From a virus (lineage: Duplodnaviria > Caudoviricetes), in IMG/VR virus record IMGVR_UViG_3300037869_000010, positions 1-43,829 of that record: 43,829 bases of DNA. The stretch is one strand, 5' to 3'. Below the pieces are notes generated by a model. That model saw only the letters and a program-made list of their open reading frames with translations. It made no database searches and was not told where the DNA came from. Each line of letters begins with the position of its first letter. The first letter of the stretch is position 1. A program made the position numbers and the translations under genes. Below are positions 4,112 to 34,823 of this stretch, piece by piece.

Positions 4112-4677
4112 CTGCTCACCCAGACTTCGCCGTGAACCTCGGCGAATACCACGGCTGAGCGCACTTCGTTAGTCGGCAGCACGCCGATCACTTGCAGGCC
4201 CGCGGGCCAGGTGATCGGGAACCCCGTCAGGTTGCGGAGCTGTAAAACAAACACTGACCCGGCCGGGATTGCGCCCAGGGTGAATGCGGTGGGGATGGTG
4301 ATCTCCCGGTACAGATCGCGCCCGGCGCCAGGCCAGGCGATGACATTGTTCGTCATGTCCACCACGAGGCGAGTGGACACGACGACGTTCGTGATGATGG
4401 TCACGTATGTGTTCGTAACCGTCACGAAATTGTTGGTCACGTAGGTGACGACGTTGGTGACGTACACGTTGGTCACGAAAAGGTTCGTCTGCGGCGGCGC
4501 GGGGAAACTGACCGAGAGAGTTACGGGCAGTGTGACGGGCAAAGGCGTCTGCGCGCGGGCAGGAAGACCAAAACAATTGAACAGGAGGTAGCAGAGAGAG
4601 CAGAGAAGAAGAAAATTCCCCTTCGGTCTCTGCTGTCTCTGTTTGCTCCTGTTGGATCTGGATTGGTTCTTCTTCAT
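4108..4677 (-). CDS. predicted secreted protein with VTN repeats
   Basis: ATG 4677 overlaps the upstream TGA; leader MKK..LLLCSLCYLLF..ARA; VTN-rich segment. Confidence 0.7.
   Translation of the reverse strand: MKKNQSRSNRSKQRQQRPKGNFLLLCSLCYLLFNCFGLPARAQTPLPVTLPVTLSVSFPAPPQTNLFVTNVYVTNVVTYVTNNFVTVTNTYVTIITNVVVSTRLVVDMTNNVIAWPGAGRDLYREITIPTAFTLGAIPAGSVFVLQLRNLTGFPITWPAGLQVIGVLPTNEVRSAVVFAEVHGEVWVSR
4576..4657. repeat. family D element inside the signal-peptide region
   Basis: AACAGGAGGTAGCAGAGAGAGCAGAG ... CTCTGCTGTCTCTGTTTGCTCCTGTT. Confidence 0.9.
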
Positions 4678-22150: not shown

Positions 22151-22806
22151 TTTATCGCCACGGCGTTGGTTGCTTTGACGGGCGCCGGGTTCTTCACCAA
22201 CGCTTTGGTTTCCTCGCTGAATTCGACGCCGTAGTCGTACGCCGGAATGGTTTGATCTCCGAACTGGAAAGGCATCACGCGCATGACGAGCAGGTTCTGG
22301 GGCGAGATGCGTTCCCCCACGGTTAAAAGCTCGCCACCGGGGAAATTGCGCACGAAACACCGCCCGGCTGGCAGGACGTCCGTTCGCGTCATGACCGAGG
22401 TTCTATAAGCCTGGTCGATTTCCAGTTCATAGCGGCTGGGCCGGTAAACCCTCCTGGACAACGAACTTTCACCAACCAGTTCACGGACCACCTGCTCGGG
22501 CATGGTGAACACAACACCATCAGGTAAAACCTGGCCCACAGACATCGGCGCTTGGGGAATCAACCGCGCCCACCGGGCTGAGTGGACGATGTTGTAAAGC
22601 TGTCCCTCGACGATGCGCAGTTGCCATGCCGGTGCCGGCGGTGCCTTGATAAGATACTTAGGCGGCTCGACGGGCGGCGAGCGGGGCGGCACCGGGAAAC
22701 CGTAACGGCCGCCCACTTCACCCAGGCGCGTGCCATAGATGCGGCCCGAGGCCGAGAAAGCCGACTGGCACAGAGTGCAGAGACTGAGGATGAGGAGAAG
22801 TTTCAT
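22147..22806 (-). CDS. secreted hypothetical protein in the lysogeny operon
   Basis: Signal peptide MKLLLILSLCTLCQSAFSA. Confidence 0.65.
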   Translation of the reverse strand: MKLLLILSLCTLCQSAFSASGRIYGTRLGEVGGRYGFPVPPRSPPVEPPKYLIKAPPAPAWQLRIVEGQLYNIVHSARWARLIPQAPMSVGQVLPDGVVFTMPEQVVRELVGESSLSRRVYRPSRYELEIDQAYRTSVMTRTDVLPAGRCFVRNFPGGELLTVGERISPQNLLVMRVMPFQFGDQTIPAYDYGVEFSEETKALVKNPAPVKATNAVAIK

Positions 22807-23063
22807 GAGCTGTTTTTAATTCGTTTGGTCAAGTTGACAGCCCTGTGATTTATCGGAGGTAAGGCGAAGGGGATTAGCTTTTGCCGCGAGATCGTCCACT
22901 TGTGTGCCAGTGTCCGATATTGCGCCAACGGACTTTTGCACGGGACAGTCCGCCCGCGCCAACGGCCAATGCACGCCGAAGATTTTTGGACACGGAAAAT
23001 AGTGGGCACTCCGGTTGCTGGCCATTGGGCCATGACTGTCAAGGTTGGAAAGCTCGTGTTCAT
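22803..23063 (-). CDS. hypothetical protein
   Basis: Fills the gap after the repressor; ATGA overlap with the next gene. Confidence 0.35.
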   Translation of the reverse strand: MNTSFPTLTVMAQWPATGVPTIFRVQKSSACIGRWRGRTVPCKSPLAQYRTLAHKWTISRQKLIPFALPPINHRAVNLTKRIKNSS

Positions 23064-23074
23064 CTCGCCGAAGG

Positions 23075-23392
23075 TTATGAAGCTTTTGAAGACCCGACAG
23101 ACGCGCCTGGGTCGTAACGGCCGGGACTCGCCTTGCGCTTAGTTGGTTTGACAGGCGCCACCGCCGGTAAATTTTCTTTCCGCTCGCTCGGCGGAAAAGC
23201 GTCCCCAATTGATTCCTTCTCCGCTGCTTCCAAGTCCCGCAAGGCCAGGTAACGCAGATAGCCACTGATCGTCTGCTGGCGCGAGTGTGCCCGTGCTCTG
23301 ATCTGCGCTAATAATTCGACATCGATGCTGATGGCGATTTGGGTTTGCCCTGGGCTGCGGTTTCTTTTTCTTTTTCTCGGGTCATTGGGCAC
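23075..23392 (-). CDS. ribbon-helix-helix regulator (repressor position)
   Basis: TQIAISIDVELLAQIRARA..TISGYLRYLA RHH pattern. Confidence 0.7.
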   Translation of the reverse strand: MPNDPRKRKRNRSPGQTQIAISIDVELLAQIRARAHSRQQTISGYLRYLALRDLEAAEKESIGDAFPPSERKENLPAVAPVKPTKRKASPGRYDPGASVGSSKAS

Positions 23393-23398
23393 GCGCCT

Positions 23399-23427
23399 AC
23401 AAGACCACGCCTCCCAATAGCTGTCAA
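23399..23427 (-). promoter_or_regulatory. sigma70-like leftward promoter
   Basis: TTGACA-17-TCTTGT with TGn extension, 6 nt before the GTG start; the -10 box is weak. Confidence 0.4.
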
Positions 23428-23458
23428 CATGAAATCGTATATTTGATATGATTGCACA

Positions 23459-23486
23459 TTGACAATCATAGGTGGCGTGATACGCT
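23459..23486 (+). promoter_or_regulatory. sigma70-like rightward (early) promoter
   Basis: TTGACA-16-TACGCT with TGn extension; ATG 7 nt downstream (leaderless). Confidence 0.65.
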
Positions 23487-23493
23487 CTTATTC

Positions 23494-23670
23494 ATGCCAA
23501 GCACCAAAAAACAAGCGAGGAAATTCAAATCCGTCTCCATCAATCTTGAAGAAGGCGAGGTTCCGAGGGTTCTGGACCGCGTTCGCAAGCAAGACATCAC
23601 TGTGAGCCAATACTTTCGGCGGCTCGTCAAAGAAGACCTCAAACGTTCCGAACAGGAAGTCGCCGCCTGA
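23494..23670 (+). CDS. ribbon-helix-helix regulator (Cro position)
   Basis: KSVSINLEE..VLDRVRKQDITVSQYFRRLV RHH pattern; start at ATG 23494. Confidence 0.7.
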   Translation: MPSTKKQARKFKSVSINLEEGEVPRVLDRVRKQDITVSQYFRRLVKEDLKRSEQEVAA

Positions 23671-23701
23671 CCATTCACCGGCTTTTCGCCGGGTTATTCA
23701 C

Positions 23702-24013
23702 ATGCCACCAACCAGCATATTCACCTGTCCTGCGCAGGGCGAAGGACGGAGGGCGACTGGAGGACAGGAGGCGACCGTATTCTACGTCTCTGCCCTCCGT
23801 CCTCCGCGCCAGGGCCTCTGTTCTGCGTGCGGCAATTTGATTTTGCATCACGGTGACGCGACGCGGTGCCTGGCGTGCGTCGAGATCGCCCGCCGCAGGC
23901 CCGTGGCTTACCCAAGACAGATCCAACAGGAGGCAGCAGAGGTAGCAGAGGGGAAAGGTGAATTTGATTTCTCTGCTCTCTCTGCTGCCTCCTGTTCAAT
24001 CATCCGGTCATGA
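23702..24013 (+). CDS. Cys-rich hypothetical protein with a family D C-terminus
   Basis: CSAC and CLAC pairs; ATGA overlap with the next gene. Confidence 0.5.
   Translation: MPPTSIFTCPAQGEGRRATGGQEATVFYVSALRPPRQGLCSACGNLILHHGDATRCLACVEIARRRPVAYPRQIQQEAAEVAEGKGEFDFSALSAASCSIIRS
23921..24000. repeat. family D element
   Basis: AACAGGAGGCAGCAGAGGTAGCAGAG ... CTCTGCTCTCTCTGCTGCCTCCTGTT. Confidence 0.9.
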
Positions 24014-24219
24014 CCGACGTCAAAAAATCGATCCGGCGCCGGACGCTCGGCGAATTCATGCATTACAAGAAACGGATCGTCGTCATCATTGGTCCGGGGG
24101 ACGTCATCGGGATGCACCTCGAGCGCTCGCGGACGATTTACCGGGCGCCCATCAGCAAGCTCTACACGGCCATGGCCCAGTGGCACGCGGACGGCGTGAG
24201 CTGGGCGAAAGAGCAATGA
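24010..24219 (+). CDS. hypothetical protein
   Basis: 69 aa, translationally coupled at both ends. Confidence 0.65.
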   Translation: MTDVKKSIRRRTLGEFMHYKKRIVVIIGPGDVIGMHLERSRTIYRAPISKLYTAMAQWHADGVSWAKEQ

Positions 24220-24243
24220 ACCGGCGAATCGGCGAGGCGAGAC

Positions 24244-24322
24244 GGAGCGCGGCGTTCACGCCGCTTCAACTCGCGAATGCTAATGGCGGTCGGACGCTGA
24301 AGCGGCGTGAACGCCGCGCTCC
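24244..24322. repeat. 79-bp family B element, preceded by family G units at 24218-24238
   Basis: Exact arms. Confidence 0.92.
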
Positions 24323-24334
24323 GCTGCACATGCC

Positions 24335-24520
24335 ATGAGCGATCCCGAATTAGTGCGGCTCCAAATGGAGCTGTTGAATCAGATTCTCAATCACATCGAG
24401 CAATTGTACTGGCTGATGATCGTCCAACTGACCTTGAGTTTTGTGATCGGCTACGTGGTCATCCCGCGGCGGTGCAAAGGCGAGATGGAGAACTGGCGAA
24501 TCGGCGAATCGGCGAAGTAA
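24335..24520 (+). CDS. small membrane protein
   Basis: One TM segment; C-terminus encoded by family G units. Confidence 0.55.
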   Translation: MSDPELVRLQMELLNQILNHIEQLYWLMIVQLTLSFVIGYVVIPRRCKGEMENWRIGESAK

Positions 24521-25759
24521 ATGCAAACCCACCTTTTCCCCGTCCCTGGCAAAGACGAACCGGCGAACCGGCGAACCGGCGAATCGGCAAGGTCCGGGAT
24601 CTGGCCGCAACCGGCGCGCATTGGCGAAAGCAATTTTGTGCACAAATCGCTTTCGAATTGGAATTTCAACATCGCTGTTGGGTGCACTCATGGCTGTCGG
24701 TTTTGCTACGTCCCCTCGCTCCTGAGAGGCAGGATGAGCGAAACGATGGCCGATTATGGCGTCGCGGATCCGGACGCCGATTGGGGCAAATACGTTTTGT
24801 TGAGACGGTGGGACCGCGACATTTTCCTGCACTCGCTCGGCAAAGCCGAGTTGACGGACCCGACGACACTCGAGAGCGGGGGAAACCGAGCGGTGATCTA
24901 TTGTAGCACGACCGATCCTTACCAGACGTTCAGAGGTCAGAAGCCAGAGGTCAGAGGTCAGAGGTCGGAGGACGGAGAACAGAAGGAGAATAAGTTGCAC
25001 CACGAAGCGCGGGGGATGGTGCGTGAGTCGCTAGAGCTGATCCGCGATTACTCGACGCTCAACGTGCGCATCCTCACGCGCAGCCCGATGGCAGTCCTGG
25101 ACTTCGACCTGTTCAAATCGTTCGGGCCGCGGCTGATGTTCGGGATGAGCTTGCCGACGCTCAACGATCGGCTCGCGCAGATTTACGAGCCGCACGCGCC
25201 CAGCCCGAGCGCGCGGCTTCGTTGTCTCGAGCGCGCAGCGCAATACGGGCTGAACACGTTCGTGGCAGTGGCGCCGATGTATCCGGAGATCGGGCGGATG
25301 GATTTGGAGCGGACGCTGTCGGCCATCACCGGAATTCAACAGGAGAAAGCAGAGAGAGCAGAGGGAAGACAAGCTCCAAGCTCCAAACCTTCTTCTCCGC
25401 TATCTCCGCTTCCTCCTGTTGGATCTTCTGGTCCTTTGACCATCTTCGCCGAGCCGATCAACATCCGGGCGGAGAACGTGGCGCGCATCGCGACGCACGC
25501 GGACCGCCTCGGGCTCAAAATGCGCGTCGAAGTCTTCGAGTCGCGGCGCGCGTGGGAAGAATACGCAATCGGTCAGTTGCAGTTAATCGAGCAGGTCGCC
25601 GGCGAATTGGGCCTCGCCGAGCGGCTCCATCTTTGGCCGGACCACACTTTGGGCAGCCGCCACACGAGCGAGCGGCAGCCGGACCCGGCGGCGTACATGC
25701 GCTGGATCACCGGGTGGTGGGTGCGGAAGAGCGAGTGGCCCAGCACGTTCCAGTCATGA
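24521..25759 (+). CDS. radical SAM protein, spore-photoproduct-lyase-like family
   Basis: GCTHGCRFCY, STTDPYQ, RILTRS and EP.APSP..RL motifs; three repeat-derived segments. Confidence 0.85.
   Translation: MQTHLFPVPGKDEPANRRTGESARSGIWPQPARIGESNFVHKSLSNWNFNIAVGCTHGCRFCYVPSLLRGRMSETMADYGVADPDADWGKYVLLRRWDRDIFLHSLGKAELTDPTTLESGGNRAVIYCSTTDPYQTFRGQKPEVRGQRSEDGEQKENKLHHEARGMVRESLELIRDYSTLNVRILTRSPMAVLDFDLFKSFGPRLMFGMSLPTLNDRLAQIYEPHAPSPSARLRCLERAAQYGLNTFVAVAPMYPEIGRMDLERTLSAITGIQQEKAERAEGRQAPSSKPSSPLSPLPPVGSSGPLTIFAEPINIRAENVARIATHADRLGLKMRVEVFESRRAWEEYAIGQLQLIEQVAGELGLAERLHLWPDHTLGSRHTSERQPDPAAYMRWITGWWVRKSEWPSTFQS
24930..24969. repeat. family H tandem heptamers in frame in the radical SAM gene
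   Basis: CAGAGGT units encoding RGQKPEVRGQRSE. Confidence 0.85.
25334..25424. repeat. family D element, with nested AAGCTCC units, in frame in the radical SAM gene
   Basis: Encodes IQQEKAERAEGRQAPSSKPSSPLSPLPPVG. Confidence 0.9.
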
Positions 25760-26037
25760 GCGACACCGACCCCATGGCCATCGTCGCGTTGCTGCGCGAG
25801 GAAATGCGCAAGGGCCTCGAAGAGATCCTCAACGAGGTTGCCCGCCAGCACAGTCCCTGGATGAACGCGAACAGCGCGGCGCGCTACGCCGACTGTGACC
25901 CGAGCACCATCCACAAAGCCGCGGCCAAGGGGATCATCACGCGCTACGACCAGTTCACCGGCCCGCGCTTCAGGCGGGACGAGATCGACGCGGCGCTGCA
26001 GGGGAAGAAGCTGAAAAGCAAGAAACCCCAGAAATGA
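25756..26037 (+). CDS. excisionase-like HTH protein
   Basis: WMNANSAARYADCDPSTIHK..RFRRDEIDA pattern; ATGA overlap at 25756. Confidence 0.7.
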   Translation: MSDTDPMAIVALLREEMRKGLEEILNEVARQHSPWMNANSAARYADCDPSTIHKAAAKGIITRYDQFTGPRFRRDEIDAALQGKKLKSKKPQK

Positions 26038-26288
26038 CCAACGACGAAATCAGTAGAGACGTCACGGACGCCATGCGGTTCCTGCGCACATGCGGGAGCG
26101 ACTGCGGCCCCCGCCAGGCGGACGCCATCCAACGATTGCTGTCCAGGATGCGCAAGCAGGACGACGCCATCCACCGCCTCAAAGCGACCCTCGACGAAGT
26201 CGTGCAAGACATCCCGCCGATCGAACCTCGCTGTGTGGACCCGCGCATTGCTCACCACCCAGAGATGCTCAAACACCCGAAGCGATGA
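26034..26288 (+). CDS. hypothetical protein
   Basis: 84 aa, ATGA-coupled. Confidence 0.6.
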   Translation: MTNDEISRDVTDAMRFLRTCGSDCGPRQADAIQRLLSRMRKQDDAIHRLKATLDEVVQDIPPIEPRCVDPRIAHHPEMLKHPKR

Positions 26289-26291
26289 AAA

Positions 26292-26386
26292 GAGCGTTGG
26301 CGCGTTGGAGCGTTGGAGCGTCAGAGCGTGCTGGCGCTTTTTCGAGGCCACGCTTCCGACGCTCCCACGCTCGGACGCTCCTGACG
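26292..26386. repeat. family E element
   Basis: GGAGCGTT/C units around core AGCGTGCTGGCGCTTTTTCGAGGCCACGCT. Confidence 0.85.
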
Positions 26387-26394
26387 CCCCCCCC

Positions 26395-27999
26395 ATGACC
26401 ATCAACCCCAAGCTTTACGGTGCCCGCGGCGACGGGCGGACCAATGACACGCCGGCGTTCCTGCGCGCGCTCGAGGCGCTGCGGGCCGCGGGCGGGGGCA
26501 CGTTGCGAATGCCGGCCGGCAAATATCTCCTGGAAAAAAGCGATGACGGTTACGCCCGCGAAGAGTACGAAGTCACCACCAACTCCGCGTTAGTCGTCGA
26601 TTTCGGCAACCTGGTTCTCCAGGGCGATGGCATGGGCCTGACCGTGCTCGAGGCTGCCAGCCCGACCACCACGCTGCTATTGGTCTCCGGACCGGACCTG
26701 CGCAACATTTGCCTGCGCGACCTGACTTTCGAGCAGCCCGACGCCGCGGCGGACTACGCGAACACTCAGACCGCGCGGACGCTCAGGGCGTCGGAGCGTC
26801 CGAGCGTCCGAGCGTCCGAGCGTGCTGGCGCTTTTTCGGAGCCACGCTCCGACGCTCCGACGCTCCGACGCTCTGACGCTGCCCCGGACGCCCTCAACTA
26901 CATCGACCAGGGCTGGACCCTCGGCACGATGATCTACCTCGAGGGCCGCGCCGGGCAGGCCATCAGCAACATCTCCATCACCAGGTGCGAACTGCGCAAC
27001 CCTGTCCGTCACGCCATCTGCCTGGCCTGGGCGAAGAACGTGCGCATCACCGACAACCTGTTCGCCTATTATGACGGATTTATTCCGCCCCAATATTCCG
27101 GGCACGCGAGCGGCGCCGGCCGGTGCGGCATCTTTGGCGGGGCGCCCTCCGTGCACGACGTCTTGATCAGCGGCAACAATTTCAACGGGAACGTCAGCGG
27201 CAAATGTCCCGTCGGCTCGAGCGCGACCGGATACGCGTACTGCGCCGCTGATGGTTTCGTGTGGCTGAGCCGCGGCGGCGGCGTGAACGTGGAAAACAAC
27301 ACCATCCGCAATTACGGTCTCGAAGCGATCCAACTCTCGGCCGCGCCCGCGCGCGTGCAGAACAACCAGTTTTACACCGAGACCGACACCCCGGGCGCCG
27401 TCGCGTGCTACGCCTATCCCTGTTCCCCGCGCGAGGACGACATCGAGCGCCCGCTCTTCACCTTCAGCGGCAACCAGGTTTACGGCGGGGGCGGCGGCTT
27501 ATGGACAAAAGGTCCGGCGCTGGTTTACACGAGCGAACTGCCCACGCCGCGCTGCCGGCTGATGGCCACGGGCAACATCTTCGAGAAGGTGGACGTCGTC
27601 TTCGCCGCGCTGAGCGCGGACGCATTCGTATGCTCGAACAACGTCGCGAGCGATTGCCGGCAATTCGTGTGTTACAACATCGGCCCGCTCGATGAGATGC
27701 ATCCGCGGCTGGATTTCCGGTGCCGCTACCTGAGCTTCATCGGCAACATCATCAACCGGTGCACAGACGTGCCGTTGCTTTTCAACGGGACCTTGGCGGA
27801 CGCCGGCGTGCTCGTGTTGATCGGCAACACCGTTGCGCGGGGCAATTACCACCTGGTGCTTGGCTATCCCAAGGAAGGGGAGACCTATACCGTAGTGGCC
27901 AAGGACAACGTCTGGGTCGCGCCCGACGGCAAGTTGGAAGCGGCGCCGGCGATCGCTTACACGCCGCTGCCGGCGTCCATCAAGTTCAGCCATGAGTGA
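26395..27999 (+). CDS. pectate-lyase-3-like beta-helix protein
   Basis: INPKLYGARGDGRTNDTPAF..GGGTLRMPAGKY signature; start at ATG 26395. Confidence 0.8.
   Translation: MTINPKLYGARGDGRTNDTPAFLRALEALRAAGGGTLRMPAGKYLLEKSDDGYAREEYEVTTNSALVVDFGNLVLQGDGMGLTVLEAASPTTTLLLVSGPDLRNICLRDLTFEQPDAAADYANTQTARTLRASERPSVRASERAGAFSEPRSDAPTLRRSDAAPDALNYIDQGWTLGTMIYLEGRAGQAISNISITRCELRNPVRHAICLAWAKNVRITDNLFAYYDGFIPPQYSGHASGAGRCGIFGGAPSVHDVLISGNNFNGNVSGKCPVGSSATGYAYCAADGFVWLSRGGGVNVENNTIRNYGLEAIQLSAAPARVQNNQFYTETDTPGAVACYAYPCSPREDDIERPLFTFSGNQVYGGGGGLWTKGPALVYTSELPTPRCRLMATGNIFEKVDVVFAALSADAFVCSNNVASDCRQFVCYNIGPLDEMHPRLDFRCRYLSFIGNIINRCTDVPLLFNGTLADAGVLVLIGNTVARGNYHLVLGYPKEGETYTVVAKDNVWVAPDGKLEAAPAIAYTPLPASIKFSHE
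26787..26880. repeat. family E element in frame within the beta-helix gene
   Basis: Same core as the 26292 and 40707 copies; encodes ASERPSVRASERAGAFSEPRSDAPTLRRSDA. Confidence 0.88.
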
Positions 28000-28279
28000 C
28001 ACGGCGAATCTCCATCCGCTGCCGCCGAGCAAATGCCCAACGTGCGGCTATGAGATGGATACGGTGCAGTGCTTCTATGACAAAGCGGCCCGCCCGGCGC
28101 CGGGCGACATCACTCTGTGCATGAAGTGTGGCGATCCACTCACCTTCACTGAGCAACTGACTCTACGAGCTGCGGACCTCAAAGACATGCTCGTACTAAA
28201 CGCCGACGCGGAGGCGAGCTGGCAGTTTAGGCGGACACAAAGCGCCATCCGCCGTTTACGGCCGCTTGAGAAGGAATGA
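27992..28279 (+). CDS. zinc-ribbon hypothetical protein
   Basis: CPTC and CMKC pairs. Confidence 0.6.
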   Translation: MSDTANLHPLPPSKCPTCGYEMDTVQCFYDKAARPAPGDITLCMKCGDPLTFTEQLTLRAADLKDMLVLNADAEASWQFRRTQSAIRRLRPLEKE

Positions 28280-28518
28280 AACCGGGAATGGTTAAGCGGG
28301 ACCGGAACGGTTTGACCAGGTGTCGCGTGTGCGGATGCACGGAGATGGACGCCTGCAACCCTCCATGCGGCTGGCAACCAGGTCAGGAGGACCTCTGCAC
28401 GAACTGCCATGAGACCGCAGCGTCAATTCATGAATGGCTGTGGTCGGCCCGGAGAGCAAATAGGGCGGCTCTTTGGCGCGAGGTTAAGCGCTATCAGACG
28501 CCTCGGGCACGGTCATGA
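28276..28518 (+). CDS. Cys-rich hypothetical protein
   Basis: CRVCGCT..AC..C.W..DLCTNC. Confidence 0.65.
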   Translation: MKPGMVKRDRNGLTRCRVCGCTEMDACNPPCGWQPGQEDLCTNCHETAASIHEWLWSARRANRAALWREVKRYQTPRARS

Positions 28519-28904
28519 GCACAGCGTTGGTCATGGACGAGACGGTGCGAAAACAGATTCGCGAACTGTGTGAACTGGCCGCGACGCAGCCCGTGGAAAT
28601 ACGCGAACTCCTAACAAACATCCAAACCCGCGAGGGGAAGAAACGTCACATGGAGCAAATGAGCCGGCAGACAATCGCAATTCCGCTGGGCTTCCTGGTC
28701 ACTTTCTCGATTGAACTCGGCCAGCCCTGTGGGACGTGCCGGCAGCGTGCCAAACGAGCACGCGCTGTGGATAGTCGCCCAGGAGTTCGGCTTCTGGGGC
28801 AGCCTCAAACAATGTTCGGTGTGGCCGGAACTACTGATTGGCCACGGCTACGCCATGAATGTGGTGCAACCTCTGGAACAAGTGCTAGTGGCCGAACGAT
28901 CTGA
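28515..28904 (+). CDS. hypothetical protein, possibly frameshifted near 28745
   Basis: Protein-like sequence appears to continue in the other frame (PNEHALWIVAQEFGF..MNVVQPL); stop lies inside an attC. Confidence 0.45.
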   Translation: MSTALVMDETVRKQIRELCELAATQPVEIRELLTNIQTREGKKRHMEQMSRQTIAIPLGFLVTFSIELGQPCGTCRQRAKRARAVDSRPGVRLLGQPQTMFGVAGTTDWPRLRHECGATSGTSASGRTI

Positions 28905-28985
28905 GATGAGAGAACCCGGCCACAACAACAGCCCCGACGACACTGAAAGTGTAAAGGCCGGGTTCTCTCCATCGAATGGTTCGGG
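28891..28985 (-). mobile_element. attC: integron attC site (distal)
   Basis: Minus strand CCCGAAC cattc GATGGAGA GAACCCGGC ... GCCGGGTTC TCTCATC tcagatc GTTCGGC. Confidence 0.85.
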
Positions 28986-29229
28986 GACTCGCACTCCCTA
29001 CGTGGGCTTCAGCAACCAAACGCTGGACCGGCTGCCGGCCGTGAAACCGGGAGACGAAATCACTTGTGGAGTCTGTGGGAAACGACATGCGCTGGAAGCG
29101 GCGGCGGATGGCAGCACGCTCCTCCTGTTCTACAAATGCGGGGAAACGCTCTACCTGGGGGCAGTAAGGGGCCGCTCAGTCGTGGGGCAAAAGGCGTTCA
29201 TCGGCAAAAGTACGACGGAGGACGGATGA
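28906..29229 (+). CDS. cassette gene, small CxxC protein
   Basis: ATG lies in the attC L' box; ITCGVCG motif. Confidence 0.6.
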   Translation: MREPGHNNSPDDTESVKAGFSPSNGSGTRTPYVGFSNQTLDRLPAVKPGDEITCGVCGKRHALEAAADGSTLLLFYKCGETLYLGAVRGRSVVGQKAFIGKSTTEDG

Positions 29230-29474
29230 GCAGCTACACGGACATCCTCAACAAGCGCGCCCGCACTTGGCCTTACGGCACGGAGAAGCAGGTCAAGGTG
29301 ATTCACGCCGATGAGAAGAAGCGATTCATAATTTGCGCTGACGGTGACAAGGAAGCTTACGTGCTCCTTTACACCGACACCGCCGATGCGAAGGAAAATG
29401 ACCGAGGCGTCATCACATTCACCCAAGGTGGCCCGCTGGGCGGCTACTGGAAGTTCACGCGCTCAGTGCTCTAA
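29226..29474 (+). CDS. cassette gene, hypothetical
   Basis: ATGA overlap at 29226; TAA lies within the R box CTCTAAC. Confidence 0.6.
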   Translation: MSSYTDILNKRARTWPYGTEKQVKVIHADEKKRFIICADGDKEAYVLLYTDTADAKENDRGVITFTQGGPLGGYWKFTRSVL

Positions 29475-29560
29475 CGCCAAAGCTCAATGACCCGGCCCAC
29501 CACGACTAGCAATTGCAACGAAACCGGACCGCCGGGTTCAGTTGCAGCGCATGGTTCGGG
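29469..29560 (-). mobile_element. attC: integron attC site
   Basis: Minus strand CCCGAAC catgc GCTGCAAC TGAACCCGGC ... GCCGGGTC ATTGAGC tttggc GTTAGAG. Confidence 0.9.
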
Positions 29561-29762
29561 CTTCGGGGTCGGTGACGCTGTGCTCGCGAAGGGCTGGTAT
29601 CGCAAAGACCGTCCGACGGATACCGAGTGTTTCGATTCGTGGCAATGGGGCTACGAATCGGCGATTGTCACCGCAGTCACGGAAACGGGCTATCAAGTTG
29701 TCACGGGCCACGGACACAACGCCTGGGTGTCGCGGGACGCTGCGAGAAGGCCGAACGCCTGA
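29487..29762 (+). CDS. cassette gene, hypothetical
   Basis: Starts inside its own attC and ends at a TGA in the next attC. Confidence 0.6.
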   Translation: MTRPTTTSNCNETGPPGSVAAHGSGFGVGDAVLAKGWYRKDRPTDTECFDSWQWGYESAIVTAVTETGYQVVTGHGHNAWVSRDAARRPNA

Positions 29763-29839
29763 GATGACAGACGGCACACCAGAAGCGGTCGAACCAGGAC
29801 AGGATGAACCTAGCCGTTCTGTCCAACGAATGGTTATGC
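29750..29839 (-). mobile_element. attC: integron attC site
   Basis: Minus strand GCATAAC cattc GTTGGACA GAACGGC ... GCCGTC TGTCATC tcaggc GTTCGGC. Confidence 0.88.
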
Positions 29840-30126
29840 CGCCCATCAGTGAAGAGTGGAAACAGCGGTTTGCCGCTAAAAGCAGCGACCATCAAGCCAC
29901 GCCATGCCCGAGCTGTGGAAGCCGCACAAGCTTTGTGATCGACACAAGAATACGACTGCGCGCCGGATACGTTCGGCGGCGGCGATTGTGCGAGTGCGGC
30001 CATCGCTACACGACCCGAGAATCTGTCGTGGAAGATAAATGCGCTAATCCTCCGAGTGCGCAGGAGTGCACAAGGGCGCTTCACGTAGTGCGCGAACTTA
30101 TCAACAAGCATCTCGGGGAGGCATAA
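29764..30126 (+). CDS. cassette gene, NrdR-like zinc ribbon without ATP cone
   Basis: CPSCG..VIDTR..VRRRRLCECGHRYTTRE. Confidence 0.7.
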   Translation: MTDGTPEAVEPGQDEPSRSVQRMVMPPISEEWKQRFAAKSSDHQATPCPSCGSRTSFVIDTRIRLRAGYVRRRRLCECGHRYTTRESVVEDKCANPPSAQECTRALHVVRELINKHLGEA

Positions 30127-30214
30127 CGACTGAGATGAAAGACCCGGCTCAAATCACACCTTCGACGACACCGAAAGTGTCCCAGCCGGGTTCTCTTCCA
30201 TCGAATGGTTATGC
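30121..30214 (-). mobile_element. attC: integron attC site
   Basis: Minus strand GCATAAC cattc GATGGAAG AGAACCCGGC ... GCCGGGTC TTTCATC tcagtc GTTATGC. Confidence 0.88.
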
Positions 30215-31112
30215 GTCCGGTCGAACTCATTTGGATTTATTTTCCGGCATCGGGGGCTTTGCTCTGGCCGCTCAGTGGACAGGCTGGCAAACGATAGCCT
30301 TCAGCGAAATAGAACCGTATGCGTGCAAAATCCTCAAGCGCCACTGGCCAGAAGTCCCCAACCTCGGCGACATCCGAAACGTGCGAGGCGTTCGCGCCGA
30401 CCTCATCACAGGGGGATTTCCTTGCCAGCCTTACAGCACTGCCGGCAAACGACGAGGCGCAAAAGATGACCGCGCGCTCTGGCCGGAAATGTGCCGAGTT
30501 ATTGAAGAGACAAGACCCGCTTGGGTGCTTGGTGAGAACGTGCCTGGAATCATCAATATGGAACTCGACCAAGTGCTTGCTGACTTGGAGCGCCTCGGCT
30601 ACGCCTGCTGGCCGCTTATTATTCCGGCTTGTGCCGTGGACGCCGGCCACCGAAGGGAACGAGTCTGGATTGTGGCCCACTCCGAACGTGTGCGGCGGCG
30701 GGAATCCACCCGAGATACTGACACCGCACAAGAATCACTTCATCCGCCCGAGCGGCAAGAAAGCGCATCTGGGACTCGACCAAGCCGTGAAACTTTGGCC
30801 GACACCGAGCGCGTGCGCAGCGCGACAGGGGCAGAACAATCCAGACGGGAAACGGGGACAAACTCTAATCGGCGCAGCGCGGGGTCAACTGTGGGCGACA
30901 CCGACGAGCCACGAACGGACTCACACGCAGCGACAGGTTCACCACGGCGAACAACTGGCGAACCAAGTCGGTGGGAGCCTGAACCCGAACTGGGTCGAGT
31001 GGCTAATGGGATACCCAATCGGTCACACCGCTTGCGAGGACTCGGAAACGCCATCGTCCCCCAAGTTGCAGCGGTGATCTTAGACGCGATGGCGAGGACG
31101 CATAACGCTTGA
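30135..31112 (+). CDS. dcm: cassette gene, C5 DNA cytosine methyltransferase (main chain)
   Basis: Motifs I DLFSGIGG, IV GFPCQ, VI ENV, VIII HRRERVW and X LGNAIVP; ATG lies in attC. Confidence 0.9.
   Translation: MKDPAQITPSTTPKVSQPGSLPSNGYASGRTHLDLFSGIGGFALAAQWTGWQTIAFSEIEPYACKILKRHWPEVPNLGDIRNVRGVRADLITGGFPCQPYSTAGKRRGAKDDRALWPEMCRVIEETRPAWVLGENVPGIINMELDQVLADLERLGYACWPLIIPACAVDAGHRRERVWIVAHSERVRRRESTRDTDTAQESLHPPERQESASGTRPSRETLADTERVRSATGAEQSRRETGTNSNRRSAGSTVGDTDEPRTDSHAATGSPRRTTGEPSRWEPEPELGRVANGIPNRSHRLRGLGNAIVPQVAAVILDAMARTHNA
30319..31077 (+). CDS. nested alternative-frame ORF, probable second methyltransferase chain
   Basis: 252 codons open inside dcm; LW(P/A)TP repeats and a motif-IX-like LNPNWVEWLMGYP; true start uncertain. 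Confidence 0.6.
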   Translation: MRAKSSSATGQKSPTSATSETCEAFAPTSSQGDFLASLTALPANDEAQKMTARSGRKCAELLKRQDPLGCLVRTCLESSIWNSTKCLLTWSASATPAGRLLFRLVPWTPATEGNESGLWPTPNVCGGGNPPEILTPHKNHFIRPSGKKAHLGLDQAVKLWPTPSACAARQGQNNPDGKRGQTLIGAARGQLWATPTSHERTHTQRQVHHGEQLANQVGGSLNPNWVEWLMGYPIGHTACEDSETPSSPKLQR

Positions 31113-31231
31113 GGTGACGGACCGGCTCGAAAGGCAAATATGACTGACGAAGAATTTGAAGCACACACCGCCAAGATTCGCGCTCACCAGGAGATACGGG
31201 AAGCCGGTTCGCGTCCAGCGAATGGTTCGGC
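31100..31231 (-). mobile_element. attC: integron attC site (proximal cassette)
   Basis: Minus strand GCCGAAC cattc GCTGGACG CGAACCGGC ... GCCGGTC CGTCACC tcaagc GTTATGC. Confidence 0.85.
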
Positions 31232-31382
31232 ATCGTTCACTCAAAACGCGATGCTGGTCCTTCTGCCAATCGCAGTTCTAATGGCGTTTGCTCTCCCGCA
31301 TAAGGCGGCGGCGGTTTTCCAGGCTGCCATTTGCGCGTTCTCGCTGGGGGTGAAAGTCGCCCTGCGGTGGGGCCGAGACTAA
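31140..31382 (+). CDS. cassette gene, small two-TM membrane protein
   Basis: Starts in the attC loop; hydrophobic C-terminal half. Confidence 0.55.
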   Translation: MTDEEFEAHTAKIRAHQEIREAGSRPANGSASFTQNAMLVLLPIAVLMAFALPHKAAAVFQAAICAFSLGVKVALRWGRD

Positions 31383-31384
31383 AT

Positions 31385-31421
31385 GCTGAACGCTGATTCT
31401 GCGACGAGCGGTTCGTATAAC
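31385..31421 (-). mobile_element. attI: candidate attI site
   Basis: Minus-strand GTTCAGC (31391-31385) nearly complements the R'' of the first cassette; no attC stem; second box GTTATAC at 31421-31415; adjoins the intI start. Confidence 0.6.
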
Positions 31422-31432
31422 TCAAAACCCAA

Positions 31433-32383
31433 ATGACGCGCACGGAAGCTATCGACAAGGCTCGGGATGTGATGCGGCGCCAACACAAGGCGATTTCGAC
31501 CGAGGAAATCTATCTGCACTGGCTGCGCCGCTACATGGCTGCCATCGGCCAGATGCCCAATGAGCTGGCCAGCGAGAAGAAGCTCGAACGCTTTTTGACC
31601 GAGCTCGCCCGCGCGCACGACGTGTCTGCCTCAACGCAAAATCAGGCGTTCAATGCCATTCTCTTTTTCTACAAGGATGTGCTCGGGCTTCCCCTCAAGA
31701 ACGTGGACGCCTTGCGGGCGTCGCGGCCGGAGCACTTGCGCCATGCGCCCACGCCAACCGAGACGCGCCAGTTGCTCGAGGCCGTTCGGGATGTGGCAGG
31801 TTATCCCACCAATCTCATCACCCGGCTGCTTTACGGTTGCGGGCTGCGGGTGAGTGAGCCGCTCAACTTGCGCATCAAAGACGTGCAAGTCCGCGAGACG
31901 AAACTTTTCATCCGGGGCGCCAAAGGGCGCAAAGATCGGGTGGTGGCGTTGCCTTGTTCGTTGGCGGAGGAAATCCGGGCGCAGATCGCTTTTGCGCGCA
32001 CGGTCTGGCAGCGGGACGCACAAGCCAGAATGCCGTTAGAATTGCCCCATCAATTGGCCGCCAAATATCCGGAGTATCGATTCGCCTGGCCGTGGGCCTG
32101 GGTGTTCCCGTCACGTTGGCCGTGCAAACATCCGCGCACCGGCCAGCTCGTGCGCTATCGGATGCACGAGGTCAATGTTCAGAGGGCCGTCAAGGAAGCC
32201 CGCCGGCGGATTGGCATCATGGTCCTGCCGCACGAACTGCGGCACGCTTACGCCACGCACACGCTGGATCGCGGGGTGAATGTCAAGGCCCTCCAACAGG
32301 CCATGGGGCATGCGGACGTCAACACGACGATGGGGTATTGCCACGCGGAAGCGTGCAGTGTGAAGAGCCCGCTGGATTCGTAG
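31433..32383 (+). CDS. intI: integron integrase
   Basis: FLTELA..VSASTQNQAFNAILFFY, LLYGCGLR, GAKGRKDR, HELRHAYATH and MGH..V.TTMGY, plus the IntI-specific insertion LPHQLAAKYP..W.WVFPS..HPRTG. Confidence 0.92.
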   Translation: MTRTEAIDKARDVMRRQHKAISTEEIYLHWLRRYMAAIGQMPNELASEKKLERFLTELARAHDVSASTQNQAFNAILFFYKDVLGLPLKNVDALRASRPEHLRHAPTPTETRQLLEAVRDVAGYPTNLITRLLYGCGLRVSEPLNLRIKDVQVRETKLFIRGAKGRKDRVVALPCSLAEEIRAQIAFARTVWQRDAQARMPLELPHQLAAKYPEYRFAWPWAWVFPSRWPCKHPRTGQLVRYRMHEVNVQRAVKEARRRIGIMVLPHELRHAYATHTLDRGVNVKALQQAMGHADVNTTMGYCHAEACSVKSPLDS

Positions 32384-32388
32384 GAGAA

Positions 32389-32441
32389 GGTAGGGCGGCG
32401 CGCGAAGAAACGATCAGGGCTCGACGGAGTCTCGCCCTACC
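32389..32441. repeat. REP-like remnant between convergent genes
   Basis: GGTAGGGCG ... GGGCTCGACGGAGTCTCGCCCTACC; GTAG-type ends with an internal palindrome in the right arm. Confidence 0.65.
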
Positions 32442-32442
32442 A

Positions 32443-32808
32443 TCATTTCTGGACGGGCCGGTTGGAATAGGCTTCGAGCGCCGCGGCGATCGCTTCGCGG
32501 ATCGCTTCGGTCTGGTTGTTCGAGTACCCCTTCAGATTGAAACGGCGCAGGCCGTTGGTGCCGAGGCCCGCCGTGTATTCCACGTCCTTGATCGCTTTGC
32601 GCGTGAATAGACTCGACGTGGCGAATGAAACCTTTTCCCCGCCCGGCTCCGTGCGCGTGTAGGACACCGAGGAGCAGCCCAAGAGCAGGAACAAGAGCAG
32701 GATTGAACAGGAGGCAGCAGAGCCAGCAGAGAAGAGGAAGAGGAGAATTGAATTTCTTTCTCTGCGCTCTCTGCTTCCTCCTGTTGGATCTAGTTCTGGG
32801 TGTTTCAT
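32443..32808 (-). CDS. predicted lipoprotein (spanin candidate)
   Basis: LLLFLLLGC lipobox; last gene of the late operon; leader includes a family D element. Confidence 0.55.
   Translation of the reverse strand: MKHPELDPTGGSRERRERNSILLFLFSAGSAASCSILLLFLLLGCSSVSYTRTEPGGEKVSFATSSLFTRKAIKDVEYTAGLGTNGLRRFNLKGYSNNQTEAIREAIAAALEAYSNRPVQK
32702..32789. repeat. family D element in the lipoprotein leader
   Basis: AACAGGAGGCAGCAGAGCCAGCAGAG ... CTCTGCGCTCTCTGCTTCCTCCTGTT. Confidence 0.9.
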
Positions 32809-33329
32809 AAATTCGGTGTGACCGGTGGTGTGCTCGGTGGGCCCGGTTCGAGCATGACATTAGCCGGCGCCATCGGGTTAATGAGCGTTTGAGCGTGGAG
32901 ATCGATTAACGCGCGTTGCTTGGCCACGGCGATTGTCGAGTCCACCTCAGCCTGGCGCGAGGCCTGTTCGGCATACGCGATCGCCGAGGCGACTGCGATC
33001 CGCTTGTTCTCCGTCGTGGGCACGATCCGCGCCAGGGTATCAGTGGCGATCATGAACTGGCGTTTGAGCTCGAGCACACTCGAATTGACCAGCGCATGAA
33101 TGATGTTTTGCTGGGTCTTGAGCGCCACCTGGTCAGATTGAATCTCGTGCAAGGTCTGGTTGCGGTTCTCGCGGTCCTGTTCGACGCGCTCATCATGCGC
33201 CTCGAGCTTTTGTTTGACCGCGGCGGCCGTTTTGCGTTGCCCGAGCCGGTTGCTTACGCCGAGCACCACGCCGACGATGATGACGACGAGCGCGTTGGTG
33301 ACTTGGTCAGTGAGGAGGGTTGCGAACAT
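32805..33329 (-). CDS. membrane-anchored coiled-coil protein (lysis-module candidate)
   Basis: N-terminal TM segment; start moved to ATG 33329, 17 nt below TTGACT. Confidence 0.55.
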   Translation of the reverse strand: MFATLLTDQVTNALVVIIVGVVLGVSNRLGQRKTAAAVKQKLEAHDERVEQDRENRNQTLHEIQSDQVALKTQQNIIHALVNSSVLELKRQFMIATDTLARIVPTTENKRIAVASAIAYAEQASRQAEVDSTIAVAKQRALIDLHAQTLINPMAPANVMLEPGPPSTPPVTPNL

Positions 33330-33353
33330 CCTAACCTTGGCGGCGGAGTCAAC

Positions 33354-33473
33354 GTAGGACAGGCGTCTCGCCTGTCTTGCCGCCCGCGCGAAGCCGCGCA
33401 GGTTTGGGTTTGCCGGGTTGTCCACGGCGCTCTGACGCGCCGTGGACCAGACAGGCGAGACGCCTTGTCCTAC
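33354..33473. repeat. REP family A element
   Basis: Both arms; the right arm has a 1-nt insertion and supplies the TAG of the upstream gene. Confidence 0.92.
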
Positions 33474-34690
33474 AGCGGAATCACGAACCCGTTCACGTTC
33501 GTCGCTGCGTTCGGACCGTAAACTTGCTGGATGAGATAGTCGTCGGGCTTGGTCGTGTTCCAGAAATCGGGGATGCTCACCGCGGGGCAGACCGTATCGA
33601 ACTGCACGCGACTGCCGAGGATCGGTGCGCCCCCGCTCGGCGCCGAGGGGCCATCGTAAATATCAGGGCCAAAACCCGCCGTGCCAGAACCGCCGGCCAA
33701 AAGCGGCCGGCGCGACATGCGGACGGAAACGGACGGCCGGATGCGATGCCGCACCTGGCTGCAGCTCAATCGTTCCTCGACGAGGTAAACCAGGTCCGGC
33801 GCGTGATAGCTGGGAAGCAACGACGCCATCCTCGCGTTATCGTCCCCGGCCGTGTCATAGGCCCAAAGCACCAGGCGATTGGCGGTAGTGGCGCCCGGGT
33901 AGTACATGGCGCCCTCGACGCCGAGCACATCCAGGAACGTGCGATTGCCCTCCGCGTTGAGCGGTCCTTTGTCCACCTGCAAAATGTTGTAACCGGTCAG
34001 CGGGGGCGGGTCCGCGTTGAAACCTTGCTTGGCCAGGCCGGCCACCTGGGCGCCCACCTCGCCGTAATGCGTCCCGGTATCGCCGATGTACCAGTCCAGG
34101 TCCCATGTATCCTCGAGGGTGTAATGCCCGGCCGCGATGTCGATCGCTTGTTGGGCTTCCACCGCGGTGCGCAAGGTCGCCAGGTGATCGACCATCAGAT
34201 GTTGCCAGGCCCGGATGCTCTTCGAGCTGCCCAGCGGTTCGACCAACACATTGCTCAACGTGAACGTCTGCACCGCGGTGATCGGCACACCATAGCGGTT
34301 GGTCAGATGCTGCGTCATCAATGTGGCGGTCTTGGTCGTGGCCCCCAGGTCGATCGGCAACACCGCCAGGTTCGCCCGGAAAGTGGCTTCATCCGGGATG
34401 AACGTGAGCGTGACGACGTCCGCGGCCGCTCCCGGGATGATCGTGCGCGTGAAATCCAGCGAGCTCGAGTGCGGGAAATTGGAAATGCTGATCTGGACGC
34501 GCAAGGTATTGTAAAGCGTGTCATCGAGCGTGTCCGGCGCCAGGAAGCTGGCGAACCCGTGCATCCCCACCGTGCTGATGAACCGGATCTCCTGGTAGGC
34601 CAACGGCCGGCTCACGCGCACGACCCGGAAACGTAGCGGGGACGCCTTGAGGAACTGGAGGGGCCCGGCGTCGGGGAATTGGCCTAGCAT
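33470..34690 (-). CDS. hypothetical protein, possibly virion-associated
   Basis: 406-aa ORF in the late operon; no motif recognised. Confidence 0.6.
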   Translation of the reverse strand: MLGQFPDAGPLQFLKASPLRFRVVRVSRPLAYQEIRFISTVGMHGFASFLAPDTLDDTLYNTLRVQISISNFPHSSSLDFTRTIIPGAAADVVTLTFIPDEATFRANLAVLPIDLGATTKTATLMTQHLTNRYGVPITAVQTFTLSNVLVEPLGSSKSIRAWQHLMVDHLATLRTAVEAQQAIDIAAGHYTLEDTWDLDWYIGDTGTHYGEVGAQVAGLAKQGFNADPPPLTGYNILQVDKGPLNAEGNRTFLDVLGVEGAMYYPGATTANRLVLWAYDTAGDDNARMASLLPSYHAPDLVYLVEERLSCSQVRHRIRPSVSVRMSRRPLLAGGSGTAGFGPDIYDGPSAPSGGAPILGSRVQFDTVCPAVSIPDFWNTTKPDDYLIQQVYGPNAATNVNGFVIPL

Positions 34691-34695
34691 GTAAC

Positions 34696-34805
34696 GTAGG
34701 ACAGGCGTCTCGCCTGTCTGGTCAACGGCGCGTCAGAGCGCCGTTGACAACCCAAACCTGCGCGGCTTCGCGCGTGCGGCAAGACAGGCGAGACGCCTGT
34801 CCTAC
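34696..34805. repeat. REP family A element
   Basis: Exact arms; spacer is reversed relative to the 33354 and 40234 copies. Confidence 0.92.
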
Positions 34806-34823
34806 GTTCTGGCGCTCGGTGGC

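What the first reader, a model, noticed from the sequence alone, without database searches (positions are those of the whole stretch)
28891..31391. All cassette genes are antisense to their attC, and the attC sites encode start and stop codons
Seen: attC polarity is minus-strand, yet all cassette ORFs are plus-strand and continue the early operon. Four L' boxes (TCTCATC, TGTCATC, TTTCATC, CGTCACC) with their adjacent tca spacer read TGAgATG or TGAgGTG on the plus strand. Starts fall at 28906, 29764, 30135 and 31114, 14-15 nt from the R-box start; the fifth site has ATG at 29487. The TGA terminates the previous gene in three cases (28904, 29762, 31112), and the R-box TAA does so in two. Each attC is therefore translated as an N-terminal leader; at 31114 a 9-aa ORF relays to ATG 31140. 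Established: cassette genes usually run toward their attC and are driven by Pc. Inference: these attC sites also act as stop/restart couplers, so any cassette order stays translationally coupled under the phage early promoter.
Basis: partly seen in the sequence, partly recalled or inferred. Interest (0 to 1): 0.88.

Follow-up and report, generated by a model that had tools for sequence, protein, structure and literature searches.

The report
Active phage integron with backwards cassettes
A temperate phage carries an apparently active gene-shuffling integron whose cassette genes lie on the opposite strand to textbook ones, so each recombination hairpin sits in front of its gene and holds stop and start codons that likely pass ribosomes from one gene to the next in most cassette orders.

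Summary
Confirmed. Five attC sites (top strand minus), an attI and an intact IntI lie in a temperate phage; all cassette genes are on the plus (bottom) strand. Polarity has independent support: source-run contigs join 30124 to 31389 at AAC, best read as a copy of cassette 29756-30126 inserted at attI, and another study holds cassette 29475-29755 between different neighbours. Antisense genes are the rule in related viral arrays (107 of 122 cassettes) but not in bacterial ones (3 of 66). The general rule is a reading frame, not the L' motif: 63 of 65 genes that cross the cut site do so with AAC as a codon, and 131 of 138 viral attC sites stop that frame. Stop-start coupling holds in 60 of 138 sites (bacterial: 2 of 80), mostly in the hairpin interior. 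Corrections: the spacer TGA is an ordinary attC feature, TGA 28904 ends a frameshifted tail, start 29764 is uncertain, and 'any order' is overclaimed. Translation is untested. Eight literature searches found no description; the scan noted this design before on other DNA. New variant of integron.

The parts
28515..28904 (+). Phage gene upstream of the array, no attC of its own found; carries a frameshifting deletion near 28745, so TGA 28904 ends an out-of-frame tail
   Evidence: N-half matches P0014 in this frame; C-half of the same family is in the 28711 frame; no site left of 28891
28891..28985 (-). attC site 1 (distal), 7-nt spacer; ATG 28906 in L'; AAC-frame TGA overlaps that ATG
28906..29229 (+). 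Cassette gene, Zn-ribbon-like family; about 28 codons of attC-encoded leader before the conserved core
   Evidence: homologues begin at the residue just after the attC; only GTG 28951 (inside attC) and a GTG inside the conserved motif are alternatives
29226..29474 (+). Second gene of the same cassette (28897-29474); own GGAGG and ATGA overlap; ends on the R-box TAA
29469..29560 (-). attC site 2; ATG 29487 overlapped by the AAC-frame TGA
29487..29762 (+). Cassette gene (cassette 29475-29755); stop supplied by the next cassette; same cassette seen with other neighbours in run X2
   Evidence: record 10: 29470-29763, 1 difference, loose ends on both sides
29750..29839 (-). attC site 3; TGA-G-ATG coupler; further in-frame ATGs at 29830 and 29836
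29764..30126 (+). NrdR-like Zn-ribbon gene (cassette 29756-30126); the cassette found joined to attI in a minor form
   Evidence: PF22811; joint 30124 to 31389; depth arithmetic
30121..30214 (-). attC site 4; ATG 30135 in L'
30135..31112 (+). C5 DNA methyltransferase (cassette 30127-31105), with a second open frame 30319-31077; stop supplied by the next cassette
   Evidence: PF00145 from residue 33; homologous cassette in L018 with the same limits
31100..31231 (-). attC site 5; GTG 31114 opens a 9-codon ORF whose TGA overlaps ATG 31140 in the loop
31140..31382 (+). Gene of the first cassette (31106-31390), small hydrophobic protein without family
31385..31420 (-). attI; cut site in AAC 31389-31391
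   Evidence: contigs of X1, X2, X3 begin at 31389; motif conserved upstream of related intI genes
31383..31436 (+). 17-codon ORF across attI in the AAC frame; its TGA overlaps the intI ATG
   Evidence: translation inferred
31433..32383 (+). Integron integrase IntI, catalytic R139, K164, H267, R270, H293, Y302 intact; same strand as the cassette genes
   Evidence: TIGR02249 286.9 bits, cut-off 265; alignment

Best explanation
This is a complete phage-borne integron with standard attC/attI geometry in which every cassette carries its attC hairpin in front of a gene coded on the bottom strand, and the stop and start codons inside those hairpins likely keep the genes translationally coupled within a presumed early operon after shuffling. 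Shown: IntI, five attC sites, attI, gene strand, recombination junctions at the left AAC, and across related phages one shared reading frame at the cut site. A gene either ends on the TAA of its own R box or crosses the cut with AAC as a codon; the incoming cassette's attC (or attI) then gives the stop, often overlapping or next to that cassette's own ATG. Inferred: transcription from the phage's rightward promoter through the array into intI rather than from a Pc; ribosome re-initiation at these junctions; translation of part of each attC as an unconserved leader; selection for the shared frame because neighbours change.
For: Strand survey with one detector and one codon classifier: viral 107 antisense, 6 sense, 9 unclear of 122; bacterial 3, 56, 7 of 66. 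The polarity rule reproduces the assayed TJE1 sites. Junctions at AAC in X1, cassette with new neighbours in X2, contigs starting at attI in three runs. DNA homology between phages ends at the next site's AAC in 4 pairs. Frame: 63 AAC-frame, 0 and 2 in the other frames, 26 R-box TAA, 8 earlier stops of 99 confident calls among 128 sites; 24 of 27 loci use only that frame. AAC-frame stop inside attC 131 of 138 (other frames 76, 80; bacterial 55 of 80); next to an open start 60 of 138 (other frames 11, 23; bacterial 2 of 80). In-attC ATG in the gene's frame 60 of 95 against 35 of 190 in other frames. The homologous methyltransferase cassette in L018 uses a different, loop ATG, again in frame and overlapped by the AAC-frame stop.
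Against: No RNA or protein data. 78 of 138 related sites fail the coupling test; 35 of 95 have no in-frame ATG in the attC. Sites are from related phages and are not independent. Gene frames come from my own codon score, which called the window's methyltransferase cassette wrongly and one other unclear. The X1 joint has only 26 letters on its short side, X1 may be the window's source, and the second junction is inferred from bin depths. Three of five window sites do not fold as attC at minimum energy. ATG 30135 has a strong Shine-Dalgarno-like match upstream (-10.4 kcal/mol, long spacing), so it may not need coupling. Non-cassette genes of the same block overlap just as tightly.
Confidence: 0.75

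Rival explanations
1. By-product: antisense cassettes are real and mobile, but the stop-start overlaps only reflect ordinary tight packing of a phage operon, tuned case by case after insertion; no order-independent interface is selected.
For: Six ATGA overlaps among the non-cassette genes of the block and one inside a cassette; spacer TGA is ordinary; the coupler's place varies (46 interior, 14 spacer/L' of 60); the paired deletion and 7-nt spacer at site 1 look like local tuning (inference).
Against: Local tuning does not predict one frame at the cut (63 against 0 and 2), while the frame leaving the attC, which never changes partner, is mixed (43, 31, 21); the X2 re-pairing is coupled; bacterial sense genes that read into their own attC use 6, 3, 2 (small n).
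Confidence: 0.15
2. Genes start at the 3' edge of the attC or from their own ribosome sites; most of the attC is untranslated and the upstream ATGs are incidental.
For: ATGs at 29830 and 29836, the second kept in homologue P0002; TTG 30231 inside methyltransferase motif I; SD-like matches at 30135 and 29226; family members of 28906 lack a leader.
Against: No start codon between attC and conserved core for three genes; in-frame ATG enrichment 60 of 95 against 35 of 190; P0002 is itself called with an attC-derived leader.
Confidence: 0.07
3. Polarity is the reverse, or the array is a dead relic, so the genes are sense or no shuffling occurs.
For: Symmetric R boxes; poor folding of sites 2, 3, 5; extra base reads C on the bottom strand at these sites rather than the G of aadA7.
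Against: Junctions and homology ends at the left AAC, none seen at the right GTT; intact catalytic residues; rule validated on TJE1 and on 56 sense bacterial cassettes.
Confidence: 0.03

Closest known systems
Canonical integrons (class 1; sedentary chromosomal integrons; Nivina 2016 PMC5027507, Cury 2016 PMC4889954)
   Same: IntI family, attI next to the 5' end of intI, attC boxes and spacers, cut in the bottom-strand AAC, attC array divergent from intI, copy-and-paste insertion at attI (10.1101/2020.08.07.237602).
   Different: Genes are on the bottom strand, co-oriented with intI; attC precedes its gene and holds its start; new cassettes land at the far end from the presumed promoter; no Pc-like site found.
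[quoted passage not shown] 2023, PMC9892861)
   Same: attC arrays in phages, methyltransferase cargo.
   Different: Their complete integrons are captured host or class 1 pieces; TJE1 cassettes are sense by my check (3 of 3). P12002L_attC1 has its bottom strand on the coding strand, which the text read calls only 'divergent directions'; it failed their assay.
ORF-11/ORF-17 in attI1 and attC effects on translation (review PMC8876359)
   Same: Short ORFs over an att site couple translation of the next gene; the ORF-11 stop comes from the inserted cassette's core site.
   Different: Known only for the first, sense cassette; attC is described as a block to ribosomes, not as the source of stop and start at every junction.
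Inverted-integrase integrons (Treponema and others; PMC4889954)
   Same: intI and cassette genes on one strand.
   Different: There intI is flipped against attC and genes stay sense; here intI-attC geometry is standard and the genes are flipped.

Membership tests
Integron | IntI-family tyrosine recombinase with intact catalytic residues | tested here: met
   TIGR02249 above cut-off; RKHRHY invariant in 11 aligned proteins
Integron | attC sites with R and L boxes, unequal spacers, extrahelical base | tested here: met
   stable fold for 2 of 5 only
Integron | attI beside intI receiving cassettes at AAC/GTT | tested here: met
   joint to 31389 and contig starts at 31389 in three runs
Integron | Cassettes mobile as units between cut sites | tested here: met
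   X2 record 10; homology ends at AAC
Integron | IntI-dependent recombination of the folded bottom strand | not testable with these tools
   needs a recombination assay
Canonical cassette array | Gene on the top strand, followed by its attC | tested here: not met
   all six genes on the bottom strand
Canonical cassette array | Pc promoter in intI/attI facing the array | tested here: inconclusive
   no minus-strand sigma-70 match in 22500-33000, but the scan is crude
Inverted-integrase integron | [quoted passage not shown] | tested here: not met
   intI plus, attC top strand minus
CALIN | No neighbouring integrase | tested here: not met
   intI 201 nt from site 5

The most novel reading that the evidence does not exclude
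Phages run their own cassette pool with reversed coding polarity and a standard translational plug: any cassette docks after any other without breaking the operon, while host cassettes (often anti-phage defence genes) captured at the phage attI are antisense and silent, and phage cassettes captured by host integrons are silent from Pc. Transcription would also leave the recombinogenic strand as the displaced non-template strand, linking shuffling to lytic induction.
Probability: 0.4. Interest if true: 0.9.

Novelty: new variant of a known kind. Interest (0 to 1): 0.78.

Why it matters
Integron cassettes are held to be sense, promoter-distance-controlled units. Here the same recombination chemistry serves a mirror-image layout in phages, seen at several places on the IntI tree, with a recombination site doubling as coding sequence. 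It shows phages using integrons for their own accessory genes (such as methyltransferases), bears on the open question of how cassettes are made and kept in one orientation, explains odd unconserved N- and C-terminal tails of many phage proteins, and gives a testable order-independent operon design.

Tried and rejected
Rfam: no meaningful match in 27000-33000. No RNA holder listed, so expression is untested. R''/own-core complementarity cannot give polarity, since the same R boxes flank a gene in either reading. L' CAT/CAC as the phage signature: 22 of 139 viral against 5 of 80 bacterial, with the TCA spacer 0 of either; rejected as the general device. AAC-frame stop at attI: within 4 codons in 13 of 29, but frame +2 gave 14 of 29 and several motif picks were wrong; not used. 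Searches for the window's own cassette genes in viral and metagenome contigs returned only unrelated proteins (L170-L172). Word-index search for the 28515 protein found nothing. Rctr41k has an IntI-like gene co-oriented with its neighbours but no attC by my detector. No Pfam repressor match above cut-off at the divergent region 23078-23667. The tree is the quick version only and has no root test, so single against repeated origin is open. PH101 was not checked. The Qi et al. figures and Dryad annotation file could not be seen and may show gene-attC orientation.
Full report
Context. The window is the whole contig and is a temperate phage: terminase, portal, head protease, major head protein, tail genes and a separate phage integrase on the minus strand. 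A plus-strand block from about 23494 to 32383 is tightly packed, with seven ATGA overlaps among 16 gene pairs listed. That it is an early operon is inferred from this layout; the one sigma-70 match (23424-23452) is at chance level. The nearest integrases in bacterial genome bins are from Verrucomicrobiota, the likely host group.

Observation. Every coordinate, L' box, start and stop of the finding is in the sequence. The gene at 31433-32383 is an IntI above the TIGR02249 cut-off with all six catalytic residues. The plus strand has the geometry of the bottom strand: site 5 has the same 6-nt spacer as the attC-aadA7 bottom strand listed in the supplement of PMC9892861. Only sites 1 and 4 fold as attC at minimum energy.

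Polarity and activity. My rule (5-nt spacer, extra 4th base of L'') gives the published polarity for the TJE1 sites. In run X1, which may be the window's source, a 56-letter contig of depth 3 joins 30124 to 31389, with four letters (AACG) fitting both sides. Contigs break at 29753, 30128, 31389 and 31393. Bin depths leave unexplained cover of about depth 3 over 29755-29782 and 31364-31387, which points to a second, unlisted junction from the first cassette into site 3. Depths (9.64 left, 12.7 on cassette 29756-30126, 9.6 on the first cassette, 6.72 on its junction with attI) fit a copy of that cassette inserted at attI in a minor form, the copy-and-paste product described in 10.1101/2020.08.07.237602. 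Caveats: 26 letters on the short side; a deletion plus a circle, or a sister phage, would give the same numbers; all readings need cuts at the left AAC. In run X2, another study, one contig matches 29470-29763 with one difference and has other neighbours on both sides; its new downstream attC again gives TGA in the AAC frame with ATG three bases on. Contigs of X2 and X3 begin at 31389. DNA homology between phages ends within one base of the next site's AAC in four pairs, among them the window's methyltransferase cassette and L018. A cassette is therefore attC body first, then gene.

Survey. I used 71 of the 79 viral loci (eight near-duplicates dropped) and all 80 bacterial loci (that scan covered 9 of 64 parts); sites scoring under 24 and gaps over 1600 nt were left out. 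With one detector and one codon classifier, viral cassettes were 107 antisense, 6 sense, 9 unclear of 122 (36 of 41 loci antisense by majority, 2 sense); bacterial ones 3, 56, 7 of 66 (26 of 28 loci sense, 1 antisense). The classifier erred on one of the window's five cassettes and was unsure on one. A quick tree of 68 integrases puts the window in a group of 24 viral rows (22 antisense, 2 ties); 14 more antisense rows lie elsewhere, so the design is not confined to one close group.

The interface. Of 128 viral sites, 99 had a confident upstream frame: 26 genes end on the R-box TAA, 8 earlier, and 65 cross the cut, 63 of them with AAC as a codon; 24 of 27 loci, window included, use only that frame. 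By sequence alone, the AAC frame stops inside the attC in 131 of 138 viral sites (other frames 76 and 80; bacterial 55 of 80), and that stop lies within -4 to +9 nt of a start that stays open beyond the site in 60 of 138 (other frames 11 and 23; bacterial 2 of 80), 34 by ATGA overlap. An ATG inside the attC is in the downstream gene's frame in 60 of 95 cases against 35 of 190 for the other frames; 46 are in the stem-loop interior and 14 in the spacer or L'; 39 are next to the AAC-frame stop. The frame that leaves the attC, whose partner never changes, is mixed (43, 31, 21). In the window all five sites and attI stop the AAC frame at TGA-N-RTG or an ATGA overlap, and a 17-codon ORF over attI ends on the intI ATG. 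Sites come from related phages, so the p-values printed in these calls overstate the case.

Leaders. PF00145 begins at residue 33 of the 30135 ORF; the only starts before it are ATG 30135 and GTG 30177 in the attC and a TTG inside motif I. Homologues of the 28906 gene start at the residue just past the attC, where the window has no start codon. L018's methyltransferase cassette uses a loop ATG instead, in frame and overlapped by the AAC-frame stop. The 29764 gene could start at 29830 or 29836.

The exact TGA-N-RTG motif is rare: 0 of 139 related sites, three contigs in IMG/VR, in two of which a long AAC-frame ORF ends on it and in the third the R box has TAA. The spacer TGA is ordinary attC sequence put to use. 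The gene ending at 28904 has a frameshifting deletion near 28745; its ancestral frame would fuse to ATG 28906 over the 7-nt spacer, so the deletion and the extra spacer base may offset each other (inference, one case). 'Any order' is too strong: in the X1 minor form the cassette next to attI ends on TAA and has no relay ORF to intI.

Literature. Eight searches found no description of antisense cassette arrays or of this frame rule; the library lacks most subscription journals. Seen: PMC9892861 parts 1-4 of 7 and supplement part 1 of 2, no figures or Dryad file; passages of PMC8876359, PMC5027507, PMC4889954, 10.1101/2020.08.07.237602, 10.64898/2026.09.14.751636 and PMC13323075; listing and abstract start only for the two 2024 preprints on defence genes in integrons. 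That the cut lies between A and C of AAC, and the two-frame methyltransferase precedent M.EcoHK31I, are recalled. The scan's own notes hold 26 findings with these words on other genomes; I had the frame result before that look-up and count those notes as no support. What this window adds is a complete platform and natural junctions that fix the polarity.

Verdict. An integron by every feature testable here, but not a canonical array: a new variant. Layout and frame rule are shown; coupling, promoter and purpose are inferred. Interest 0.78.

Noticed in passing
window 30319-31077 (+): A second 252-codon frame inside the methyltransferase gene matches PHROG methyltransferase families; looks like a two-polypeptide, overlapping-frame enzyme (M.EcoHK31I-like, recalled). 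The region is also conserved in L018.
   Followed up: partly
window 27992-28279: A contig of run X4 skips this gene exactly between its overlaps (27991 to 28276), with no attC nearby: a precise gene module in a relative.
   Followed up: no
window 28725-28765: Frameshifting deletion in gene 28515, same in the X1 contig; about 8-9 codons of the family are missing at that point.
   Followed up: partly
window 31411-31421 and L013, L014, L017, L025, L031, L034, L035 upstream of intI: A conserved GTTCGTAT-like motif about 20 nt from the attI cut; possibly an accessory IntI binding site (inferred).
   Followed up: no
window 3986-4093, 4576-4657, 8793-8880, 23925-24000, 25334-25424, 32702-32789: A family of purine/pyrimidine-skewed palindromes (AACAGGAG...CTCCTGTT), one inside the radical SAM gene frame; REP-like, not attC by my score.
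   Followed up: no
window 33351-33465 and 34693-34808: Long inverted repeats flank the 406-codon minus-strand ORF 33470-34690 (60 nt at 98%, 51 nt at 96%): a possible REPIN-like or invertible unit.
   Followed up: no
window 26291-26407 and 26767-26879: 8-nt tandem repeats in inverted arms, inserted in the beta-helix gene 26400-27999.
   Followed up: no
window 23078-23670: Divergent small genes (23386 minus, 23494 plus) that resemble ribbon-helix-helix regulators; only sub-threshold Pfam hits.
   Followed up: partly
L024, L019, L035, L089 downstream of intI; L072 distal: Antisense attC sites also occur away from or downstream of intI in several viral contigs.
   Followed up: no
L175 (P12002L) near 30047: The published P12002L_attC1 has its bottom strand on the coding strand, between two methyltransferase genes: a cultured phage with the antisense layout.
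   Followed up: partly
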